Positions 50 to 43,430 of a stretch of 64,000 nucleotides of DNA are shown in pieces. The translations under genes and the position numbers were made by a program. Numbering within the stretch: the first letter of the stretch is position 1; each line of letters opens with the position of its first letter. Origin of the DNA: Malacoraja senta (Eukaryota); contig CM075988.1 of assembly GCA_038087875.1 (NCBI GenBank), forward strand, positions 9,860,001 to 9,924,000, written 5' to 3'. The notes under the pieces were generated by a model that worked only from the letters and a program-made list of their open reading frames with translations, had not been told where the DNA came from and did not search any database.

Positions 50-412
50 GGTCAAGAGGATGCTATGTGGCTACTATAGAGCTTAAAGATGTGGATTACT
101 CATTGTCCGTTCATTTACAGGATAGAGGATATTTGAAATTCACCTGGATGGATCAACTATGGCACAAAATTGTTAAAACCTATAATAGGCATGCTGAGAG
201 GCCAGGGTCAGTTGCTCATGGCTTATCTCGATGATATCTTGATTACAGGGGTATCCAAGAGAACAGCTGAAGTAACCGGTGGTAGTTGTTAAATCCAATT
301 TTTAAAGATTGGGCATTATTCATCCAGTGAAATCCAAATTAACACCTGACTATTTGGGTCACAATTGATTCAATTAAGTGACTCTGCCCAGGGAAAAAGG
401 GTAGAGCTTGTT
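50..412 (+). pseudogene. DIRS reverse transcriptase relic
   Basis: Manual translation gives ATIELKDVDYSLSVHLQDRGYLKFTW...KLLKPIIGMLRGQGQLLMAYLDDILITG (YLDD at 224-235), with a deletion and frameshifts. Confidence 0.85.
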
Positions 413-552
413 GACAGCGGTATCAGAGTTGGGACTGGACGGAGAGGTGACTGAGTAGAGAGGTAGCTCCAGACCAGGACACTGAGAGTAGGAGAGAGAG
501 TAGAAATTAATGACCGACCGTACGACCGTCCGGAGAAAGATTCTAGAGGCCC

Positions 553-1752
553 ATGGCTTCAGGGAGTGGTGGTTCTGAGGGTGGTGGGTGGCAGACTGTA
601 GGTAAGGAAAAGGGGGGCTCTAAGAGAGAGGCATCGAGCGAAAGACCTGAAATGTCAGGAGATGAAGGAAGTAAAGTTAGGAGAACTAAAATTATTGAAG
701 AATTCGTCGTGCTGTTTAAAGTTAAAGGAACAAATCACGGAGATGCAGGATTTAGAGCAGTGAATCCATTAAAAATTACCACCGCTTTGGAGAGCCAGAT
801 AGGTAGGGATTTTCAGGCCAAGATTCTGTATAATGGGATGTTAAGAGTTTGTTGCAAAGACAGAAAACAGTTTAATGACGCTAGGGGTGTGGGGAAGTTG
901 GTGGTCAAGGTGGAGAGTTTGGTCCCTAGAGGAAGAGAGCAGGGAATAAAGGGAGTGGTGTATGGGATGTATGATGGCTTGTCTGAGAAGGAGATCTTAG
1001 AAAATGTTAAGGGGGCCCAGGTAATTGATGTTGTGAGATTTAAGAGTAGGAATGGAGTCAGGGACCAGCCGGTCCTGCTTACGTTCAAAGATGGAGTACT
1101 GCCACAGAGAGTGTTTCTTGGGAGTATGGCGTATCAAGTGAGGGAGTACATTAAACCACCGTTGCGCTGCTATAACTGTCAGAGGTTTGGACATGTTGCT
1201 GGGTCTTGTCGGGGTAAAAGAAAGTGCGCAAAGTGCGGTGGAGATCATGCAATAAAAAATTGCAAGGCAGAGGCTCCTAAGTGCCCTAACTGTGATGGGG
1301 ATCATGCAGCAGGGTTTCATGGTTGTAAGCGCTTTGTTCAGGCGAAGCGAGTACAGGAAGTGAAGGATCAGAACAACGTGTCATATGCAGAGGCAGCTCA
1401 AAGGGTGGCTAGAGAACGCGGAGATGTGAGCGCTGGGACTAGAGTGGTGCTAGGAAGCCAGATCACTGTGCCAAACTTGCCGTCGGCTTTTCCATCTGAT
1501 ATGTTGATTTTTAATAAGGAGTCATTTCTGTCTTTTGTTTCTGATGTGCTGGTAGGAGCTAAGAAAGCAGCTAACCGGTCAGATATCATCAGGTTAGTGG
1601 TGGGGGCAGCTGAAAGGTTCCTCAGTGTAAATCAGTTGCCAGAAAAGTTGCATCAATACATGATGGAGAGTCAGTGTATGGAGAGGTCACAGTTGTCGAG
1701 AGCTAGCAGTATGGAGTATGTCAGTGAGGTGGATGATGGTGATCCTCATTAA
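553..1752 (+). CDS. LINE ORF1p, gag-like nucleic-acid-binding protein with three zinc knuckles
   Basis: 399 aa; CYNCQRFGHVAGSC, CAKCGGDHAIKNC, CPNCDGDHAAGFHGC followed by the SYAEA motif typical of I/Jockey-group ORF1. Confidence 0.93.
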   Translation: MASGSGGSEGGGWQTVGKEKGGSKREASSERPEMSGDEGSKVRRTKIIEEFVVLFKVKGTNHGDAGFRAVNPLKITTALESQIGRDFQAKILYNGMLRVCCKDRKQFNDARGVGKLVVKVESLVPRGREQGIKGVVYGMYDGLSEKEILENVKGAQVIDVVRFKSRNGVRDQPVLLTFKDGVLPQRVFLGSMAYQVREYIKPPLRCYNCQRFGHVAGSCRGKRKCAKCGGDHAIKNCKAEAPKCPNCDGDHAAGFHGCKRFVQAKRVQEVKDQNNVSYAEAAQRVARERGDVSAGTRVVLGSQITVPNLPSAFPSDMLIFNKESFLSFVSDVLVGAKKAANRSDIIRLVVGAAERFLSVNQLPEKLHQYMMESQCMERSQLSRASSMEYVSEVDDGDPH

Positions 1753-4700
1753 CATCATAATGTTTTATATACTTCAATGGAACGCCCGGAGTCTGATTGG
1801 AAATGGTCAAGAGTTAAAGAGATTTGTTGATGAATTTAAAGAAGCACCAGAATTAATATGTATCCAAGAGACATGGTTAAAGCCCTGTTTAGATTTTGTA
1901 ATCCCAGGTTATGAATGTGTGCAATTAGATAGGTCTGATAGATCAGGTGGGGGTTGTGCAACTTTTGTTAAGACTGGGTTGCAGTATAGGAAAGTTGATA
2001 TTAATTCTAATCTTGAAGTTTTGGCTGTGGAAGTTTGGAGCAGCCAGAATTCTATCATTGTGATAAATTATTATAACCCCTGTCAACCCTTGATATTGTC
2101 AGATTTTGATGAGATAATGGAGAAGGTAAGGTGTCCTGTTCTATGGATTGGAGATTTTAATGCGCATAATCCTTTATGGGGTAGTGATCACAGGGATAAA
2201 AATGGTGTTATTGTTGAAGAATTTCTAGACAAGTATGAGTTGGTATTGTTAAATGATGGAAGGCCGTCTAGGTATAATATTGTGAGAAACACCTGCAGCC
2301 ACATAGATTTATCAATTGCTTCATCAAATTTCGCAAGAATTGGTGAATGGGATGTAATGGATAGATATACACTGGGTAGTGATCATTATCCAATTTTATG
2401 TAGGTTTGGTAGGGATTTGAGGAGAGAAGTGGAAAAGAAAGTCCCTAGATATAACTTTTATCAGGCCAAATGGGATAAATTCCAAGAGAAGGCTCAAAGT
2501 TTAGTTGGAGAGGTTAATAGTGAGGGTTCTGTAGATAGTTGGAATACTTCCATTAGTCTCATGATTCATGAGGCAGCTTGTTGTACTATTCCTGTGAAGC
2601 AGGAACTTAGGTCCCGTATGTCTGTTCCTTGGTGGAATAAAGAATGTGATGAAGCTGTAAGGAATAGGAATATAGCCTATCGAAAATTAAGAAAGTATCC
2701 AATTTTGGTCAATGCAATGGAGTACAAGAGGCTAAGGGCAGTAGCAAGACGAGTTGTAAAGGATGCAAAGAGGAATAGTTGGAGGAAGTTTTGTGGTACG
2801 CTAGGCCCGGAAACTCCAGTAAGGCATTTGTGGTCAGCTGTGCGTAGAATGTCAGGAGTATATAAAAGAAGTTTGTTACCAGTGTTGCAGAAGGGTGAGG
2901 TGGTAGCAGTCACCAATAAGGAAAAAGCAGACATGTGTGTTGACAGTTTTCAAGCAGTGCATAGATCAGAGAGCATGGGAGTGGAGAGGTGTAGAAAGAG
3001 AACCGAGATGATGGCAGTTAATCAGTGGAAGCTGGAGAGGAGTTTAGTAAATGATAATACCTTTAATTTGTTTTTTACCATAAAAGAGTTGAAGGATGCA
3101 ATTATGTCTGGGGCAAATACCACCCCGGGGAGAGATAGGTTGTCGTATGAGTTATTTAAACATCTGGATGATATTGTACTTGATGAAATCTTAGCTTTGT
3201 TTAATACTGTGTGGGCAGAGGGTTATTTACCAAAGGAATGGAAACATGCAGTCGTGGTCCCTATTTTAAAACCGGGTAAAGAGGCATCTGACCCTAGTTC
3301 ATATCGCCCTATAGCGCTCACAGCAGTGCTCTGTAAAATTATGGAGAGGATGGTAACCAACAGACTAGTTTATTTTTTAGAAACCAGAGGACTATTTGTT
3401 GATGTACAGAATGGCTTTAGGAATGGAAGGTCTACAATGGAGTCTGTATCAGTTTTGGATCAGGATATTAAAAGGGCATTTAGAAGCAAGGAAACAGTAG
3501 TGAGTGTATTCCTTGATATTGAGAAGGCATATGATTCTTTGTGGAAGGAGGGATTAATGATTAAAATTTTTGACTTGGGAAACAGGGGACGAATGTTCAA
3601 CTGGATTAAGGATTTTTTATTGAATAGAACAATACAAGTAATGGTTGGTAGTGTCAGATCGGAGTCTGTAGAAATAGAGAATGGAACCCCGCAGGGAAGT
3701 GTTATCAGTCCAGTTTTATTTAATATCATGATAAATGACATATTTTGTAAATTAGAGAGAGGATTTGGTCTGTCTTTGTTTGCAGATGACGGGGCCATCT
3801 GGAAAAGAGGTTGTAATGTAGAGTTTGTTTTAAAACAGATTCAAAGAGTGTTAGTGTCTGTAGAGGAATGGGGGAACACATGGGGCTTTAAAATCTCTGC
3901 CTCTAAGACTAAATATATGGTATTTGGTTTTAAAAGAAAGTTACCTAAGTTAGGGCTGTATATGTATGGGTCTCTATTGGAGAAGGTAAAGGTTTTTAAG
4001 TTTTTGGGTGTTTGGTTTGAAGAGCGTATGACTTGGGCTGTGCATGTAGGTAAAATTGTGTTGAAGTGTGAAAAAGTTCTGAATGTTATGAGAAGTCTGG
4101 TTGGGTGTGAGTGGGGGGCCAACAGGGAGACAATGTTGCTAATTTATCAGGCCATGATCAGATCTTCTCTTGACTATGGGTGTTTTGTGTATGGGTCTGC
4201 GTCTAAAACTGTTCTGGCTAGGCTAGATGTGTTGCAGGCAAAGGCTTTGAGGCTTTGCTGTGGAGCCTTCAGGACTTCCCCAGTCCCTGCCCTGATTGTT
4301 GAAATGGGAGAAATGCCCTTATGGTTAAGGCGCATTAAGCTAGGGTTACATTATTGGGCTAAACTTTGTGGGTGTAATGTTACCTTCCCAGCAAGGTGTT
4401 TGTTGCAAGAGGTTGATGATGGTAACAAATATAACACATTTTTTGTCGTTATAAATCAGTGGGCTAGGAAGCTGGGTTTGGAACAAGGGGGTATTATAGA
4501 GCATACAATAAGGCTACCTGTGCCCTATTGGGTTCTTCCTGAACTGTTTATTGAGCTTGCTTTTCTTCAGGAAAAAGATAAGCGCGAGGTGACTCCAAGA
4601 ATAGTGGAATATCTTAATTCAATCAGTGAGAGTACTTTGATTGTTTTTACAGATGGATCTAAAGATCCAGTTAGTGGGAGAGCTGGGTTTGGAGTGTATG

Positions 4701-5497
4701 TGGAGCAGCTTGGGTTGAAGATTGGCCGGCGCATTTCTGATGGAAGTTCTGTTCTCACGACTGAATTAATGGCAATTCAATGGGCTCTATGGTGGATTGA
4801 GGAAGCCAGTTTTAGAGAAGTCATTATCTGTTCTGATTCTGCAGCTGCTCTTGAAACTTTAAGAGTAGGGAAATCTAAAGCTCGTCCTGACATTCTAAAT
4901 GAAATCTTGAGTGTGTTTTCTAGAATTGGGTTTGCGTGTAACATCACTTTTTGCTGGGTTCCCGGGCATGCTGGGGTGAGGGGGAATGAGCAGGTGGACC
5001 TCATAGCAAAGGAGAGTTTAAGAAGAGAAATAGATATCCATGTATCATTGGGGAGAGTGGAACTGAGAGAAATAATTAAAGAGGGCTTAACAAAAGAATG
5101 GCAGAGAGGATGGGAAATGGAAGTCAGGGGTAGACACTACTTTTCTATACAATCTGAAGTTAGGAAAATATGTTTCTGTACATCTCTGTCCCGTAGGGAC
5201 TCAGTTAAACTGTGTAGATTGAGGTTGGGACACTGTGGGTTAAATTACTATTTGTGCATTGTAGGGAAACATGTTTCTGGCTTGTGTGAATGTGGGAGTA
5301 ATGAGACAGTTAAGCATGTTTTCCTAGAATGTAAAAAGTATAGGGTAGAAAGAAAAGTATTATTTGTTAGACTGACAGGACTTGGAGTTGAGGCTTTTTC
5401 TGTTTTATCTTTGTTTGGACACAATGAGAAACATCAACTGATATCCAGGGCTGTTCTTCAATTCCTGCAAGTTACAGGACTGTATATAAGAATTTAG
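1718..5497 (+). CDS. LINE ORF2p: AP endonuclease - reverse transcriptase - RNase H - C-terminal CCHC (true start may be ATG 1733 or 1760)
   Basis: 1259 aa open frame; APE (QWNA, QETW, GDFNAH, SDHYP), RT (YRPIAL, QNGFR, DIEKAYD, GTPQGS, FADD, KFLG), RNase H (FTDGSK, CSDS, WVPGHAGVRGNEQVD), CECG..ETVKHVFLEC. Confidence 0.96.
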   Translation: MSVRWMMVILINIIMFYILQWNARSLIGNGQELKRFVDEFKEAPELICIQETWLKPCLDFVIPGYECVQLDRSDRSGGGCATFVKTGLQYRKVDINSNLEVLAVEVWSSQNSIIVINYYNPCQPLILSDFDEIMEKVRCPVLWIGDFNAHNPLWGSDHRDKNGVIVEEFLDKYELVLLNDGRPSRYNIVRNTCSHIDLSIASSNFARIGEWDVMDRYTLGSDHYPILCRFGRDLRREVEKKVPRYNFYQAKWDKFQEKAQSLVGEVNSEGSVDSWNTSISLMIHEAACCTIPVKQELRSRMSVPWWNKECDEAVRNRNIAYRKLRKYPILVNAMEYKRLRAVARRVVKDAKRNSWRKFCGTLGPETPVRHLWSAVRRMSGVYKRSLLPVLQKGEVVAVTNKEKADMCVDSFQAVHRSESMGVERCRKRTEMMAVNQWKLERSLVNDNTFNLFFTIKELKDAIMSGANTTPGRDRLSYELFKHLDDIVLDEILALFNTVWAEGYLPKEWKHAVVVPILKPGKEASDPSSYRPIALTAVLCKIMERMVTNRLVYFLETRGLFVDVQNGFRNGRSTMESVSVLDQDIKRAFRSKETVVSVFLDIEKAYDSLWKEGLMIKIFDLGNRGRMFNWIKDFLLNRTIQVMVGSVRSESVEIENGTPQGSVISPVLFNIMINDIFCKLERGFGLSLFADDGAIWKRGCNVEFVLKQIQRVLVSVEEWGNTWGFKISASKTKYMVFGFKRKLPKLGLYMYGSLLEKVKVFKFLGVWFEERMTWAVHVGKIVLKCEKVLNVMRSLVGCEWGANRETMLLIYQAMIRSSLDYGCFVYGSASKTVLARLDVLQAKALRLCCGAFRTSPVPALIVEMGEMPLWLRRIKLGLHYWAKLCGCNVTFPARCLLQEVDDGNKYNTFFVVINQWARKLGLEQGGIIEHTIRLPVPYWVLPELFIELAFLQEKDKREVTPRIVEYLNSISESTLIVFTDGSKDPVSGRAGFGVYVEQLGLKIGRRISDGSSVLTTELMAIQWALWWIEEASFREVIICSDSAAALETLRVGKSKARPDILNEILSVFSRIGFACNITFCWVPGHAGVRGNEQVDLIAKESLRREIDIHVSLGRVELREIIKEGLTKEWQRGWEMEVRGRHYFSIQSEVRKICFCTSLSRRDSVKLCRLRLGHCGLNYYLCIVGKHVSGLCECGSNETVKHVFLECKKYRVERKVLFVRLTGLGVEAFSVLSLFGHNEKHQLISRAVLQFLQVTGLYIRI

Positions 5498-5588
5498 TTC
5501 AAACTTTGACCTGTGGAGGGCAGTAATACGCTTAGCAGCGTCTACACTGCCGGAATCCTACAAGAAGAAGAAGAAGACAGCGGTATCA

Positions 5589-6517
5589 AGCTAATGGAGG
5601 CACTAAGGATACATTTGGGTCATTATAATAGACCCATGCAGTTATCAGCAGAGGCTGTTTCTGATTTGCAATGGTGGATTCACCATGTGTCTAGGAGTTC
5701 TAGCAAGGTAGTGCTTGACCAGCCTTCCATGATTTTGCAGATGAATGTCAGTGCACTCGGGTGGGGTGTCACGGATATGAGTTTCAGCTGTGGAGGCAGA
5801 TGGACTGAGCAAGAGGCATCGCTTCTGCAGACATGGAGAATTAACTATTAAGAGCTTTTTATGGATAAGGCTCATTGCTCTAACAAAGGTATCCTGCATG
5901 TTCAGTTTCAGATTGACAATACTATGGCAGTGGCATATATATTAATCACATCGGTGGAATCAAGTCGGTATCTTGTGACAGATTGGCTAATCAAATTTGG
6001 GCCTGGTGCATTGAAAAAGATATTTGGTTTTCAGCTATTTATCTACCAGGTAGATTCAACATAGTAGCAGACGCCAAGTCACGAAAGTTCCATGACAACA
6101 CAGATTGGATGTTGAACCAGGAGGTGTTCAATAATATAGTACTTATATATGAATGCCAAATATCGATTGTTTTGCATCGATGTTTAACCACCAGCTGCCT
6201 AAATATGTTTCATGGGAACCAGACCAGGGGGCAGTTGCAATTGATGCTTTCTCGCTACATTGTGGTGGTATGTTTTTATATATTTTCCCACCATTCTGCC
6301 TCATAGGTCGGAGTCTGAAAAAATCAAGCAGGATGCCACTTTGGGGGTGCTTGTAATACTTAATTGCCCGACTCCAGCATGGTTCCCTTTGATGTTACAG
6401 TTAGCGATCCAACCTCCTTTGGTGGTTCCCAAGCATAGGAATTTACTGGAGCATCCGCTAACACGGGAAAGTCATCCGTTATGTGATCGTATTGACTTGT
6501 TAATTTGCAGGATTTAA
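5589..6517 (+). pseudogene. DIRS RNase H and Dam-like methyltransferase relic (frameshifted)
   Basis: LQWWI, (D)VSALGWG, IDNTMAVAYI, YLPGRFNIVADAKSR, then IDCFAS..NHQL..Y, DAFS, YIFPPF, AWFP across ORF fragments 5513-6517. Confidence 0.88.
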
Positions 6518-14938: not shown

Positions 14939-16561
14939 CATGTTTCAAGTGTTTAGTACTTACTGGAACCCTCTCCCAGTTCACAGAAGTTCAGCTCAGT
15001 TTAGTTTATTGTCACGTGTACCAAGGTACGGTGTGTTGCTTGCTAATCAGTCAGCGGAAAGACAGTACATGATTACAATTGAGCCATTTATAGTGTATTG
15101 ATACATGATACAGGAAATAACGTTTAGTTAAAGGTAAATCCAGTAAAGTCCGATCAAAATGGCCACCAATGAGGTAGATGGTAGTTCAGGACTGCTCTCT
15201 AGTTTGTTTCTTCCTCACTTATTCAGTGAGCACTTGCTCACATGACTGCAGTGCTTTCTGAGTCCCAGCATTAAGTAACTTCCACTCTCGTCCTTGTACA
15301 ATGGATCAGCTCCTTCCTTGGTCCCCATCCAATTTTTGAAGGCTGCTCACCTTCAGGCCTCAGATGTCGTGACCTGATAATTGACGCTTCGAGCACAATC
15401 TCCGCGGAGCTCCCGTGAGCTGCACTGAAATCGTCATGTTTCGAGAATAACTCCGAGGGCAGAAATTTTATTTGTACCAAAGTAATGTCAGGTCACAAAA
15501 GGCAATTACGAAATGTCCCACTCAAGCGTGGAGTCGCCCACACTAGCCACATGCTGCAACTAATTTAGCTGAGTGGAATTTCTATCTCAGCTAAATTAAT
15601 TAAATGTCTTACAAAAGCCACATAAAAAATAATGGAAGAATTTATTCATGGCATACCTAATTAAAAATCTCATCTGCATAGAGCAATGTTCAGATTACTT
15701 GAAGCAAAATTTAAATTTGCAATCCTGTGATCCAAATCTACATCACAGTAATATTACAGTATGGCGACTTTCTGCATTTATTCTTTGAGCAGTGGCTTGA
15801 AAGTGGCTCTAGAGGTGAGCACCAGTTAATGCTGCTGCCACAATTCCAACAGCCCAGGATTGATCCTGAACTCTAATACTGTCGGCATGAAATCTCCCAT
15901 TCACTGCATGAGTTTCTCCTGAGTGTTCTGGTTTCCTCCCACATCTCAAAGTCATGCTTCTTGATAGGTTCATTGGCCACTGTAAATTACTACTAGTAGG
16001 AGTGCCTATCGTGGGCAAAGTCAATGCACAGGGTGTGAGAAGGGACAGATTAAAGGGAAATGAGGAGAATGGGACTGATAGGAATTCTCCTCAAGGTATG
16101 CCTACTTTGAAGATGTTCTCCTCTTCTCTACGATCAGAGTTCTGCAACATCCTTTCTTGCTGCACCCCCCCTCTGTGCTTTTCAGACCTTTCATTCATTT
16201 GTTCTTTGTACCCTTTCATACCTCTGGTTTCCCTCTCCCTGACTCTTGATCTGAAGAAGGGCCTCGACTCTTCTCTTAGGGGTAACGGAATCAAGGGATA
16301 TGGGGAGAATGCAGGAACGGGGTACTAATTTTGGATGATCAGCCTTGATCATATAGAATGGCTGAAGGACTCGAAGGGCCAAAATTGCCTATTCCTGCAC
16401 CTATTTTCTATGTTTCTATGACCCAAAACATCACCTATTCCTTTTCTCCAGAGATGCTGCCTGACCCGCTGAGTTACTCCTGCATTTTGTGTCTATCTGA
16501 GGATTTTTTGTGAGTTGGCATAGACCTGCTGTGCTGAAAGGCCTCACTTCATGTCAAGAGA

Positions 16562-16615
16562 AGGGCGGGAGATTGCAACCTTCACATGGTCCACCCTGTT
16601 TCGACTAATGCAATT
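16562..16615 (+). ncRNA. Minimal HDV-like ribozyme motif
   Basis: P1 AGGGCGG/CCACCCT (1 mismatch), P2 GATTGCA/TGCAATT, P3 ACC/GGT, L3 TTCACAT, G for P1.1, stub P4 TTTCGA, J4/2 CTAA with putative catalytic C16605. Confidence 0.75.
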
Positions 16616-16702
16616 AACCCGACGTGCACAAACAAATAGATGTCGTTTTTCATGCCACTTGATCTACAACTTTAGGCTGTGCGCGGCATACGCAAGAAGA
16701 AG
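16563..16702 (+). mobile_element. 140-bp non-autonomous retroposon with 5' HDV-like ribozyme and (AAG)3 tail
   Basis: Perfect 12-bp TSD ATGTCAAGAGAA at 16551-16562 and 16703-16714; AAGAAGAAG tail; HDV-like fold at the 5' boundary. Confidence 0.85.
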
Positions 16703-17779
16703 ATGTCAAGAGAAATATGAAGCAATATGAGAAAATATCTGTCTTTCTGTTGCAAAATAAAGCACTGGAGGAACTCAGCAGATCAGACAGAATCTGTAAA
16801 GTGTATGGTAAGGTGATGTTTCAGGCTCAAAAGTATGGAGAAGGGTTTTGACCTGAAAAGTCACCTCTCCATTGTCTCCACAGATGCTGACTGACCCTAT
16901 GAGTTCCTCCATCACTTTGTATTTTGCTCAAGAATCCAGCATTCGCAGTTTCTCGAGTCTCTCTCTGTCTTTGTGCTGGTAGTTGTCATCATTTACCTGT
17001 AGGCTGCTGTCATTGAGAACATCCAATGGAGATTCTTTTTACCCATTTTGCCTGGTGGAAATTATCTGATAAGGTTTTGAAGCAAGGTGACATCCACATT
17101 TGGGAATAGTTGCACAACGACAGCAGAGTGCACCCACAGGCTCATTGGTTCTGCCTCATTTAGCACTGTTTATTCAACCTGACAATCTGAATTCATAAAG
17201 TCATACAGCGCGGAAACAGAGCTTTAGCCCACAGAGCCCACGCAACCCATGAAGCACACATGAAGCTATGAAATAGAGCTACCAAGTAAATTGTTCCATC
17301 TATAAATCAGTTTCAAGAAACTAATAAAAGGTCTTTATGCAATACCTCTCACAACATTCAAAGTAGCTCCAGAGAAAAAAATATATTTAGGGAAATATGG
17401 ATCCAATTAATGTTCAGTAAGATCGTATCAACAACAATAATATTAAAGATCAAATAGGTAGATACAAAGACCAGAAATTTTATTTAATTACTAACTGAAT
17501 GATAATAATGTCCAGGAGCTCAGTATAATTTCCACCTCTTAATTGTCACCCTTTTAAGAATTCAAATGTTTAAACTTCCACCCTGTCCAATCTGCCTTCC
17601 ATGGCATTATATGTTTTTATCTCATTAAATGAAATGAGATGCACTCTGTTCATCTTTCCCTGATATTTACACCCTATTTCTTGTGCCAGTAAATCCTCTC
17701 CGCGTCCTCTCCCAGTGCCACATTATTATTTTCCCAATATGAGGACTAGAATTGTGCACAGTACCAGCATGTGGTCTAT

Positions 17780-43216: not shown

Positions 43217-43430
43217 GGGCAGCATGGTGGCACAGCGATAAAGTTGCTGCCTTGCAGCGCCAGAGACCCGGGTTTGATTCTAACTACGGATGCTGTTTGT
43301 ACTGAGTTTCTACGTTCTACACATGACCTACGTGGGTTTTCTCCGAGATCTCCGGTTTCATCCCACATGTCAAAGATGTTTTGATTTGTAGGTTAATTGG
43401 CTTGGTATAACTGTAAATTGTCCCTAGTGT
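43217..43430 (+). mobile_element. HE1 / V-SINE, 3'-truncated
   Basis: Head and core as in other copies. Confidence 0.85.

What the first reader, a model, noticed from the sequence alone, without database searches (positions are those of the whole stretch)
16551..16714. 140-bp retroposon that begins with a minimal HDV-like ribozyme
Seen: perfect 12-bp TSD (ATGTCAAGAGAA), (AAG)3 tail, and no tRNA or 5S-like head. The first ~54 nt can be drawn as the HDV double pseudoknot in the correct order: P1 AGGGCGG/CCACCCT, P2 GATTGCA/TGCAATT, P3 ACC/GGT, L3 TTCACAT, G, stub P4, J4/2 CTAA. The two deviations (A16586, A16593) are what CpG decay of G would give. Established: HDV-like ribozymes cut immediately 5' of P1 and define the 5' ends of R2, RTE and Ingi/L1Tc elements and of their short derivatives (RIME, NARTc, SIDEs); Ingi/RIME make about 12-bp TSDs. 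Inference: a promoter-less, ribozyme-headed SINE released from read-through host transcripts by self-cleavage. The predicted cut site coincides with the insertion boundary to within 1 nt.
Basis: partly seen in the sequence, partly recalled or inferred. Interest (0 to 1): 0.88.

Follow-up and report, generated by a model that had tools for sequence, protein, structure and literature searches.

The report
Ribozyme-headed short retroposon family
A 140-base jumping-gene copy belongs to a family of roughly nine to ten thousand short elements whose first 54 bases look like a stripped-down self-cutting RNA of the hepatitis-delta/CPEB3 type, which would trim the element's own front end; the cutting itself has not been tested.

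Summary
Window 16563-16702 is a 140-bp insertion with a perfect 12-bp target-site duplication and an (AAG)3 tail. It belongs to a large family: a 24-nt head motif matches 9,192 times in the 1.94-Gb genome and a 24-nt tail motif 9,861 times. The 5' boundary is sharp.

The family consensus fits the HDV-like fold better than the window copy. It has P1 of 7 bp starting at nt 1 with a G1.U36 wobble, P2 of 7 Watson-Crick pairs, P3 of 3 bp, L3 UUCACGU and J4/2 CUAA or CGAA. There is no P4.

On two consensus-like copies, the only Rfam hits at E<=10 among 4,227 families are HDV-like ribozymes (F. prausnitzii type and mammalian CPEB3). Both are full-length and in register but below threshold. L3, J1/4 and J4/2 are identical to the CPEB3 model consensus.

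A motif this good did not occur in 2.5 Mb of simulated sequence.

Subfamilies keep the head and tail and vary in the middle.

A young LINE in the same window (426-5576) has the same (AAG)n tail and 12-bp duplications. It has no ribozyme and no other similarity to the short element.

Catalysis, transcription and the partner are inferred. No covariation and no RNA-end data were obtainable.

The parts
16551..16562 (+). Left target-site duplication ATGTCAAGAGAA. Its last A occupies the place of family nt 1.
   Evidence: (12-bp exact repeat).
16563..16702 (+). 140-bp short retroposon copy of the subfamily called 'A' here. It lacks consensus nt 1 and has about 7 private changes.
16563..16615 (+). 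Head: candidate minimal (P4-less) HDV/CPEB3-like ribozyme, family nt 2-54. P1 16562/3-16568 with 16591-16597; J1/2 16569-16570; P2 16571-16577 with 16609-16615; P3 16578-16580 with 16588-16590; L3 16581-16587; J1/4 plus linker 16598-16604.
16605..16608 (+). J4/2 CTAA. C16605 is the predicted catalytic cytosine (family nt 44, C in 74 of 76 heads). The second base is the family's main polymorphism (T 46, G 26, A 4).
   Evidence: (catalytic C is the first position of J4/2).
16616..16663 (+). Variable middle. It differs by deletions and replacements between subfamilies. This subfamily carries a TTTTT run (family nt 85-89).
16664..16693 (+). Conserved 3' module (CTACAACTTTAGGCTGTGCACGCCATACGC in the consensus), shared by all subfamilies seen.
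16694..16702 (+). (AAG)3 tail.
16703..16714 (+). Right target-site duplication.
426..5576 (+). Candidate autonomous partner: a full-length LINE with ORF1 547-1752 (CCHC knuckles), ORF2 1664-5497 (endonuclease, RT, RNase H), an (AAG)5 tail at 5562-5576 and 12-bp duplications ACAGCGGTATCA at 414-425 and 5577-5588. It has no HDV-like motif at its 5' end.

Best explanation
The element is one decayed copy of an abundant family of short, non-coding, LINE-mobilised retroposons built from three modules.

1. A 54-nt head that folds as a minimal, P4-less HDV-like (CPEB3-type) self-cleaving ribozyme.
2. A variable middle.
3. A conserved ~30-nt 3' module followed by (AAG)n.

Proposed mechanism (inferred): a source copy is transcribed as part of a longer host transcript. 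The head folds co-transcriptionally and cuts immediately 5' of G1. This releases an RNA whose first base is element nt 1 and which still carries the ribozyme. A LINE reverse transcriptase that primes on (AAG)n copies this RNA to its 5' end and creates 10-13-bp target duplications. The most likely source of that enzyme is the young endonuclease/RT/RNase H family present at window 426-5576. The ribozyme therefore takes the place that a Pol III promoter head has in ordinary SINEs: it defines the 5' end and is inherited by each new copy.

Shown here: the family, its boundaries and duplications, the fit of the fold, the module structure, and the LINE's matching tail and duplication length.

Inferred: catalysis, read-through transcription, and the identity of the partner.

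The window copy itself is probably inactive. It has a C.A mismatch in P1, L3 G25 changed to A, and nt 1 missing.
For: Family and ends
- 40 of 2,650 first-look candidates were scored, at 89-100% identity; 25 of the 40 span query nt 1-140.
- the head 24-mer (<=2 mismatches) has 9,192 hits and the tail 24-mer 9,861, with 0 hits for the reversed controls. Most copies are therefore full length.
- the flanks of 30 copies do not align.
- 65 of 76 loci have a duplication of >=6 bp, with the mode at 11-12 bp. It ends exactly before consensus nt 1 in 32 of 65, overlaps the G run by 1-2 nt in 19, and ends 1-4 nt upstream in 14.
- 5'-truncated copies (L018, L079) fix the orientation.

Fold
- the consensus meets a strict descriptor starting at nt 1, with P1 7 bp including G1.U36, J1/2 2 nt, P2 7 Watson-Crick pairs, P3 3 bp, L3 7 nt and CNRA directly before P2'. 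The window copy passes only with one P1 mismatch.
- the minimum-energy fold of the 55-nt head is exactly P1 plus P3.
- P2 is the centroid helix in the full element.
- 0 motifs as good in 2.5 Mb of simulated sequence.

Likeness to tested ribozymes
- (copy L005): the single Rfam hit at E<=10 among 4,227 families is HDV-F-prausnitzii (17.5 bits, E 0.16, model 1-74).
- (copy L060): the only two hits are CPEB3_ribozyme (14.1 bits, E 0.15, model 1-78) and HDV-F-prausnitzii (14.6 bits, E 0.76).
- In both calls P1 starts at element nt 1.
- Against the CPEB3 model consensus printed, L3 UUCACGU, CCCUGU and CGAAU are identical. P1, P2 and P3 differ in sequence but stay complementary.
- (passages of PMC4836649): CPEB3 has a U20.G25 wobble, C22 in P1.1, a P1.1 of one G-C plus one U-U, and a 4-nt J4/2. 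The consensus here offers the same residues at the same numbers.
- (passages of PMC10879173): minimal HDV-like ribozymes lack P4 and are active in vitro.

Subfamily changes tolerated by the fold
- The only frequent head polymorphisms are nt 8 (J1/2, G/A), nt 32 (A/G, both pair with U5) and nt 45 (the N of CNRA).
- Contigs of four other coded organisms show the same pattern, plus nt 42. There the match also stops sharply at nt 1.

Not a Pol III head
- No tRNA.
- A and B boxes match no better than in shuffles: 1,737 and 1,443 of 2,000 shuffles are as good.
- A T5 run lies inside subfamily A.

Partner
- The window LINE has (AAG)5 and a 12-bp duplication.
- Three more copies have (AAG)3-6 and 10-13-bp duplications.
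Against: - No cleavage assay and no RNA 5'-end data exist.
- Rfam scores are far below the gathering scores (14-17.5 bits against 35 and 44). The window copy itself gives no HDV hit.
- No covariation appears among 76 heads. 93.4% of cells are paired against 93.5% in shuffles, with one double change. This is expected for neutrally decaying copies, but it means the fold has no independent evolutionary support inside the family.
- No diverged second lineage of the head was found (10 hits, all single decayed copies).
- Pseudoknot-free folding energy is ordinary (z +0.48 and +0.90).
- P1.1 would have only one G-C pair. G37-C44 could instead close a small GU(UUCG)AC hairpin that sequesters the catalytic C (read from the sequence).
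- The candidate LINE has no ribozyme and no sequence similarity to the element beyond the tail.
- The LINE copies are 94-100% identical to the window's copy over the 5' region, most of them 99-100%. The short elements differ from their consensus by about 2-8% in a similarity-selected sample.
Confidence: 0.75

Rival explanations
1. The head is a conserved structured 5' module with a non-catalytic job. It could be a binding site for the LINE proteins, a stabilising 5' pseudoknot, or an internal Pol II promoter as Pr77 is in L1Tc. Its HDV-like topology would then not give self-cleavage.
For: Head and tail are kept while the middle is rearranged, which shows selection on the module but not what for. 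Rfam scores are sub-threshold. There is no P4, and P1.1 has one G-C pair. There is no covariation. The abstract of PMC3383444 (listing) states that the L1Tc 5' 77 nt is both a promoter and a ribozyme, so dual or other roles are real.
Against: The unpaired core positions that matter for catalysis (L3 UUCACGU, J1/4 GU, J4/2 C-N-A-A) match the CPEB3 and F. prausnitzii model consensus. The fold starts at the exact first base of the element, with a G.U wobble. A protein-binding role does not predict either feature.
Confidence: 0.15
2. It is an ordinary Pol III-transcribed SINE whose head comes from an unrecognised small RNA gene. The sharp 5' end would be a transcription start and the HDV-like drawing a coincidence.
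For: Most SINEs work this way (PMC4494074, abstract and passages). The commonest subfamily, with 96 nt between the head and tail motifs, shows no run of four or more T in the copies read.
Against: ARAGORN finds no tRNA. Rfam finds no tRNA, 5S, 7SL or snRNA at E<=10. A and B boxes are no better than in shuffles (the box consensus sequences are recalled, not from a call). Subfamily A amplified with an internal T5 run. A motif this good occurred 0 times in 2.5 Mb of simulated sequence.
Confidence: 0.06
3. It is an internally deleted derivative of a ribozyme-headed LINE, of the RIME/NARTc/R2-SIDE type. Its parent would be extinct, or was missed here.
For: All known HDV-headed short elements arose this way (abstracts of PMC3414825 and PMC4035085, listing). 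My search for a parent was limited to patterns of <=35 places and 30 loci per call.
Against: Patterns anchored on the head (72 hits) or the tail (151 hits; 45 hits), while excluding the known middles, returned only further short subfamilies and single odd copies. No long ORF follows the head in L033, L036, L039 or L040. The (AAG)n LINE in the window shares no sequence with the element.
Confidence: 0.2

Closest known systems
Mammalian CPEB3 ribozyme (Rfam RF00622)
   Same: Same fold order. L3 UUCACGU, J1/4 GU after ...CCCU, and J4/2 CGAAU are identical. P1 starts GGGG with a G.U wobble at the cut site. P1.1 is one G-C plus one U-U (alignment; passages of PMC4836649).
   Different: There is no P4 helix: a 6-7-nt linker replaces a roughly 20-nt hairpin. 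P1, P2 and P3 have different sequences. The motif is multicopy at the 5' end of a retroposon rather than single-copy in an intron. The score is 14.1 bits against a gathering score of 35.
Minimal (P4-less) HDV-like ribozymes: drz-Mtgn-1 and theta ribozymes
   Same: A double pseudoknot without the P4 domain. Such RNAs cleave in vitro, and a C-to-U change at the first J4/2 position kills them (passages of PMC10879173).
   Different: Those come from metagenomes and gut phages, often next to tRNA genes. This one heads a eukaryotic retroposon.
L1Tc/NARTc, ingi/RIME and SIDER of trypanosomatids; R2 and its SIDEs
   Same: An HDV-like ribozyme forms the first bases of a non-LTR element and of its short non-coding relatives, and releases the RNA from a co-transcript (abstracts of PMC3185411, PMC3383444, PMC4035085 and PMC3414825, listing).
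   Different: Those short elements are deletion derivatives that share both the 5' and 3' ends with their LINE. Here no LINE with this head or 3' module was found, and the candidate partner has no ribozyme. The ribozyme here is much smaller than the 77-nt L1TcRz.
Classical SINEs (tRNA, 7SL, 5S and snRNA heads)
   Same: Short, non-coding, with a head-body-tail design, mobilised by a LINE, and thousands of copies with duplications (PMC4494074).
   Different: The head is not derived from a Pol III-transcribed RNA gene and has no A or B boxes.
Ribozyme-bearing SINE-like elements with other ribozymes (Schistosoma Sm-alpha with a hammerhead; twister variants in S. mansoni non-LTR elements; metazoan retrozymes)
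   Same: A self-cleaving motif processes a short retroposon RNA (abstracts of PMC8501958 and PMC7229834, listings; Sm-alpha is recalled).
   Different: A different ribozyme class. Retrozymes are tandem and circularise. This family is dispersed, with single heads, duplications and a microsatellite tail.

Membership tests
HDV-like (delta-like) self-cleaving ribozymes | Nested double pseudoknot in the order P1-P2-P3-L3-P3'-P1'-(J1/4, P4)-J4/2-P2' | tested here: met
   The consensus meets the strict descriptor from nt 1. The minimum-energy fold is P1 plus P3. P2 is the centroid helix. Rfam alignments are in the same register.
HDV-like (delta-like) self-cleaving ribozymes | Catalytic cytosine at the first position of J4/2, followed by N-R-A directly before P2' | tested here: met
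   C44 is C in 74 of 76 heads. J4/2 is CUAA, CGAA or CAAA. The position rule comes from passages of PMC10879173.
HDV-like (delta-like) self-cleaving ribozymes | Cleavage site immediately 5' of P1, usually a G1.U wobble | tested here: inconclusive
   G1.U36 is present in 50 of 63 distinct heads, and element nt 1 coincides with the insertion boundary. Cleavage itself was not observed.
HDV-like (delta-like) self-cleaving ribozymes | L3/P1.1 core: U20, C22 pairing with a J1/4 G, and G25 | tested here: met
   L3 UUCACGU plus G37 is identical to the CPEB3 model consensus. Residue roles come from PMC4836649. The window copy has lost G25.
HDV-like (delta-like) self-cleaving ribozymes | P4 helix | tested here: not met
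   Only 6-7 nt lie between P1' and J4/2. P4 is dispensable in the minimal subclass, so this places the motif among the minimal variants and does not exclude it.
HDV-like (delta-like) self-cleaving ribozymes | Score at or above an Rfam gathering threshold | tested here: not met
   17.5 and 14.6 bits against 44 for RF02682, and 14.1 bits against 35 for RF00622. Nothing in the whole window reaches a gathering score.
HDV-like (delta-like) self-cleaving ribozymes | Covariation supporting the helices | tested here: inconclusive
   None within the family. The only polymorphic pair is U5-A32 (38 heads) versus U5.G32 (20 heads). All three helices differ from CPEB3 while staying paired.
HDV-like (delta-like) self-cleaving ribozymes | Divalent-ion-dependent self-scission abolished by C-to-U | not testable with these tools
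   A bench assay is needed.
LINE-mobilised non-LTR retroposon | Target-site duplications, a 3' simple-repeat tail, dispersed copies and occasional 5' truncation | tested here: met
SINE with a Pol III head (tRNA, 5S, 7SL) | Head derived from a Pol III gene, with an internal promoter | tested here: not met
Internally deleted non-autonomous LINE (RIME, NARTc, SIDE type) | 5' and 3' ends shared with an autonomous LINE of the same genome | tested here: not met
   No such LINE appeared. The (AAG)n LINE shares only the tail repeat. The search was not exhaustive.

The most novel reading that the evidence does not exclude
This would be a new class of SINE. Its head is a free-standing, P4-less, CPEB3-type HDV-like ribozyme, not a Pol III promoter and not inherited from its LINE. 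It parasitises an (AAG)n-tailed LINE through the tail alone and relies on host read-through transcription plus self-cleavage. It would also be the first minimal HDV-like ribozyme placed in a eukaryotic genome. Because its catalytic core is letter-identical to the mammalian CPEB3 ribozyme, retroposon heads of this kind would be a concrete candidate source from which the intronic CPEB3 ribozyme was domesticated.
Probability: 0.35. Interest if true: 0.85.

Novelty: new variant of a known kind. Interest (0 to 1): 0.68.

Why it matters
HDV-like ribozymes are known to trim the 5' ends of some LINEs and of their deletion derivatives. Three things would be new here.

1. A minimal, P4-less form would be in a eukaryotic genome. 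Passages of PMC10879173 say the origin of minimal variants is undetermined.
2. The ribozyme would act as a portable head module of a roughly ten-thousand-copy short retroposon that shares no other sequence with its likely LINE. That would add a fifth kind of SINE head to the tRNA, 7SL, 5S and snRNA scheme (PMC4494074).
3. Its core is identical to that of the mammalian CPEB3 ribozyme, whose evolutionary source is unknown. The review PMC7761336 treats the few conserved small ribozymes of vertebrate genomes as likely co-opted from mobile elements.

The claim is directly testable with a 54-nt RNA.

Tried and rejected
- **RNA evidence.** No RNA holder was listed and no raw-read run was on offer. 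Only Logan contigs could be laid, and contigs cannot show RNA starts. Several short contigs end at nt 1, but that is what assembly does at a repeat edge, so I draw nothing from it.
- **Earlier findings of this scan.** Nothing by sequence or by words.
- **Metagenome scan** for the core with a free P1': 0 matches.
- **A second, diverged lineage of the head** with another P1': 10 hits, all single decayed copies.
- **Parent LINE.** Head- and tail-anchored patterns that exclude the known middles gave only more short subfamilies. Odd copies L033, L036/L038, L039 and L040 have no LINE ORF downstream, or are two separate copies.
- **An HDV-like motif at the 5' end of the (AAG)n LINE.** None by descriptor or by Rfam.
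- **Similarity between the LINE 3' UTR and the element.** None above shuffles.
- **Exact CPEB3 sequence in papers.** Not found in PMC9901934, PMC4836649 or PMC8233481. I used the model consensus printed instead.
- **Prior description.** Searches for 'HDV-like ribozyme' with SINE and retrotransposon, for HDV-like, ribozyme, non-autonomous and shark, and for three sequence strings of the element found no paper describing this family. Dfam and Repbase could not be consulted, and supplements were not read.
- **Taxon.** Not established. The whole-window Rfam search gave nothing.
Full report
**The observation**

One search shows ATGTCAAGAGAA at 16551-16562 and again at 16703-16714. These repeats flank 140 bp that end in AAGAAGAAG. 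ARAGORN finds no tRNA. An Rfam scan of 16400-16900 at E<=10 gives three unrelated weak hits and no HDV-like hit. So the anatomy is real, but this copy alone is not convincing.

**The family**

- The window's own genome is 1.94 Gb. It holds at least 2,650 first-look candidates for the 140 bp. 40 were scored, at 89-100% identity, and 25 of the 40 span nt 1-140.
- A 24-nt head motif with <=2 mismatches occurs 9,192 times and a 24-nt tail motif 9,861 times. Reversed controls give 0. There are therefore about nine to ten thousand copies, and most are full length.
- In an alignment of 30 copies with 60-nt flanks, similarity starts abruptly at one column and the flanks are unrelated.
- Of 76 loci, 65 show a duplication of >=6 bp, with the mode at 11-12 bp. 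It ends exactly before consensus nt 1 in 32 of 65, overlaps the initial G run by 1-2 nt in 19, and stops 1-4 nt short in 14.
- A few copies are 5'-truncated (L018; L079). This fixes the (AAG)n end as the 3' end.
- These loci were chosen by similarity or by head or tail patterns, so they are not a random sample.

**The consensus and the fold**

The head consensus printed is GGGGTGGGAGATTGCAACCTTCACGTGGTCCACCCTGTTTCGACTAATGCAATCAA. It gives these elements:

| Element | Positions and sequence |
|---|---|
| P1 | G1-G7 with C30-U36, seven pairs; the first is G1.U36 |
| J1/2 | GA |
| P2 | GAUUGCA with UGCAAUC, seven Watson-Crick pairs |
| P3 | ACC with GGU |
| L3 | UUCACGU |
| J1/4 | G37, then a 6-nt linker in place of P4 |
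| J4/2 | C44-U-A-A, directly before P2' |

My descriptor accepts the consensus strictly from nt 1. It accepts the window copy only with one P1 mismatch.

The window copy differs from the consensus at seven places. Four are in the head:
- nt 1 is missing or replaced by the A of the duplication;
- T5 is changed to C, giving a C.A mismatch in P1;
- G25 is changed to A in L3;
- C54 is changed to T, giving a G.U pair in P2.

A16593 is the normal base of this subfamily, and the true defect is C16566.

RNAfold gives exactly P1 plus P3 as the minimum-energy structure of the 55-nt head and P2 as the centroid helix of the whole element. The energies are not unusual (z +0.48 and +0.90). Pseudoknots are not scored by that tool.

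**Chance**

The liberal descriptor is common. It has 21 distinct starts in the 64-kb window on both strands and 552 in 2.5 Mb of Markov sequence. One real hit is a tRNA-like SINE head at about 43217. A motif as good as the consensus (P2 >=7 bp and at most one G.U overall) occurred 0 times in 2.5 Mb. Here it begins at the first base of a retroposon consensus.

**Likeness to tested ribozymes**

- On copy L005, whose head equals the consensus, the only Rfam hit at E<=10 among 4,227 families is HDV-F-prausnitzii (17.5 bits, E 0.16, full model). P1 starts at element nt 1, and ACC-L3-GGU and CUAA align.
- On copy L060, of the commoner G32/CGAA form, the only two hits are CPEB3_ribozyme (14.1 bits, E 0.15, model 1-78) and HDV-F-prausnitzii (14.6 bits, E 0.76).
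- All are well below the gathering scores of 35 and 44. This is expected without P4 and with P2 not modelled, but it means membership is not established by Rfam.
- Against the CPEB3 consensus printed, L3 (UUCACGU), the CCCUGU after P1 and CGAAU are identical. P1, P2 and P3 have other sequences that remain complementary.
- Passages of PMC4836649 give CPEB3 a U20.G25 wobble, C22 in P1.1, a P1.1 of one G-C and one U-U, and a 4-nt J4/2. The consensus here has the same residues at the same numbers.
- Passages of PMC10879173 state that minimal HDV-like ribozymes lack P4, cleave in vitro, and are killed by C-to-U at the first J4/2 position.

**Variation**

Among 76 heads (80 found, 4 duplicated segments dropped) there is no covariation. 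93.4% of cells are paired against 93.5% in column shuffles, with one double change.

The only frequent polymorphisms are:
- nt 8 (G 63, A 11), in J1/2;
- nt 32 (A 49, G 27), both of which pair with U5;
- nt 45 (T 46, G 26, A 4), the free position of J4/2.

Contigs of four other coded organisms show the same frequent variants, plus nt 42 in the linker. In them G32 is the majority, the match stops sharply at nt 1 with heterogeneous continuations, and the subfamily-A middle is almost absent. A search for a second lineage with another P1' found only 10 single decayed copies.

**Modules**

Patterns that fix part of the head or tail and exclude the known middle found 72, 151 and 45 places (reversed controls 2, 0, 0). 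Nearly all are further short subfamilies that keep the 54-nt head and the ~30-nt 3' module but differ in the middle by deletions or replacements. This shows selection on head and tail in the lineages that stayed active.

**Not a Pol III head**

The best A-box and B-box matches have three mismatches each. 1,737 and 1,443 of 2,000 shuffles do as well (the box consensus sequences are recalled). Subfamily A carries an internal T5 run. PMC4494074 uses internal oligo-T to rule out Pol III transcription of another SINE group.

**The likely mobiliser**

- The window holds a full-length LINE at 426-5576. It has 12-bp duplications ACAGCGGTATCA, an ORF1 with CCHC knuckles, an ORF2 with endonuclease, RT and RNase H domains, and an (AAG)5 tail.
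- Its family is young. 40 of 62 candidates were scored, at 94-100% identity over the 5' region and mostly 99-100%.
- Three more copies have (AAG)3-6 tails and 10-13-bp duplications.
- Its 5' ends are heterogeneous, with extra bases.
- They show no HDV-like motif.
- The LINE shares no sequence with the short element beyond the tail.

The link therefore rests on the tail repeat and the duplication length only. Its clade was not determined.

**Verdict**

This is a real, abundant, short retroposon family. Its 5' module is very probably a minimal CPEB3-type HDV-like ribozyme that defines the element's 5' end. Catalysis, read-through transcription and the partner are inferred. Relative to known cases it is a new variant: it is P4-less, it sits in a eukaryotic genome, and it is not shared with a LINE. 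I found no description in print. Dfam and Repbase could not be checked.

Noticed in passing
window 426-5576 (duplications 414-425 and 5577-5588): An apparently intact, very young LINE with ORF1, an endonuclease/RT/RNase H ORF2 and an (AAG)5 tail. Other copies are 94-100% identical over the 5' region, mostly 99-100%, and carry variable extra bases at their 5' junctions.
   Followed up: partly
L091, L098, L105 (5' flanks); window 200-425 and 5577-5640; L096: Several copies of that LINE sit in the same kind of host repeat, one that encodes a YLDDILI-type RT motif just upstream in the window. L096 looks like the uninterrupted form of the window's target. This may be a target preference.
   Followed up: no
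window about 43217-43297 (+): A tRNA-like SINE head (GGGCAGCATGGTGGCACAGCG...GGGTTTGATTC) satisfies my liberal HDV descriptor. It is a clear false positive and shows that cloverleaf-like repeats can mimic the drawing.
   Followed up: no
window 16440-16500 and 16870-16930: Copies of another abundant repeat containing AGATGCTG(C/A)CTGACCC..GAGTT(A/C)CTCC flank the insertion. The same motif recurs in many fetched loci.
   Followed up: no
L036 and L038 (1466-1650); places C1828, C2299 and C6:68622818: A further subfamily has the same head, an unrelated ~95-nt middle (ATTACACGAGCTCGAATCAGGGG...ACAGGCCCTTTA) and the same 3' module. The head therefore recombines with different bodies.
   Followed up: partly
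L007:1401-1740: In contigs of four other coded organisms, summed word depth over the head is about four to five times that over the 3' module. Contig depth cannot rank parts, so this is only a hint that the head may also occur without this tail.
   Followed up: no
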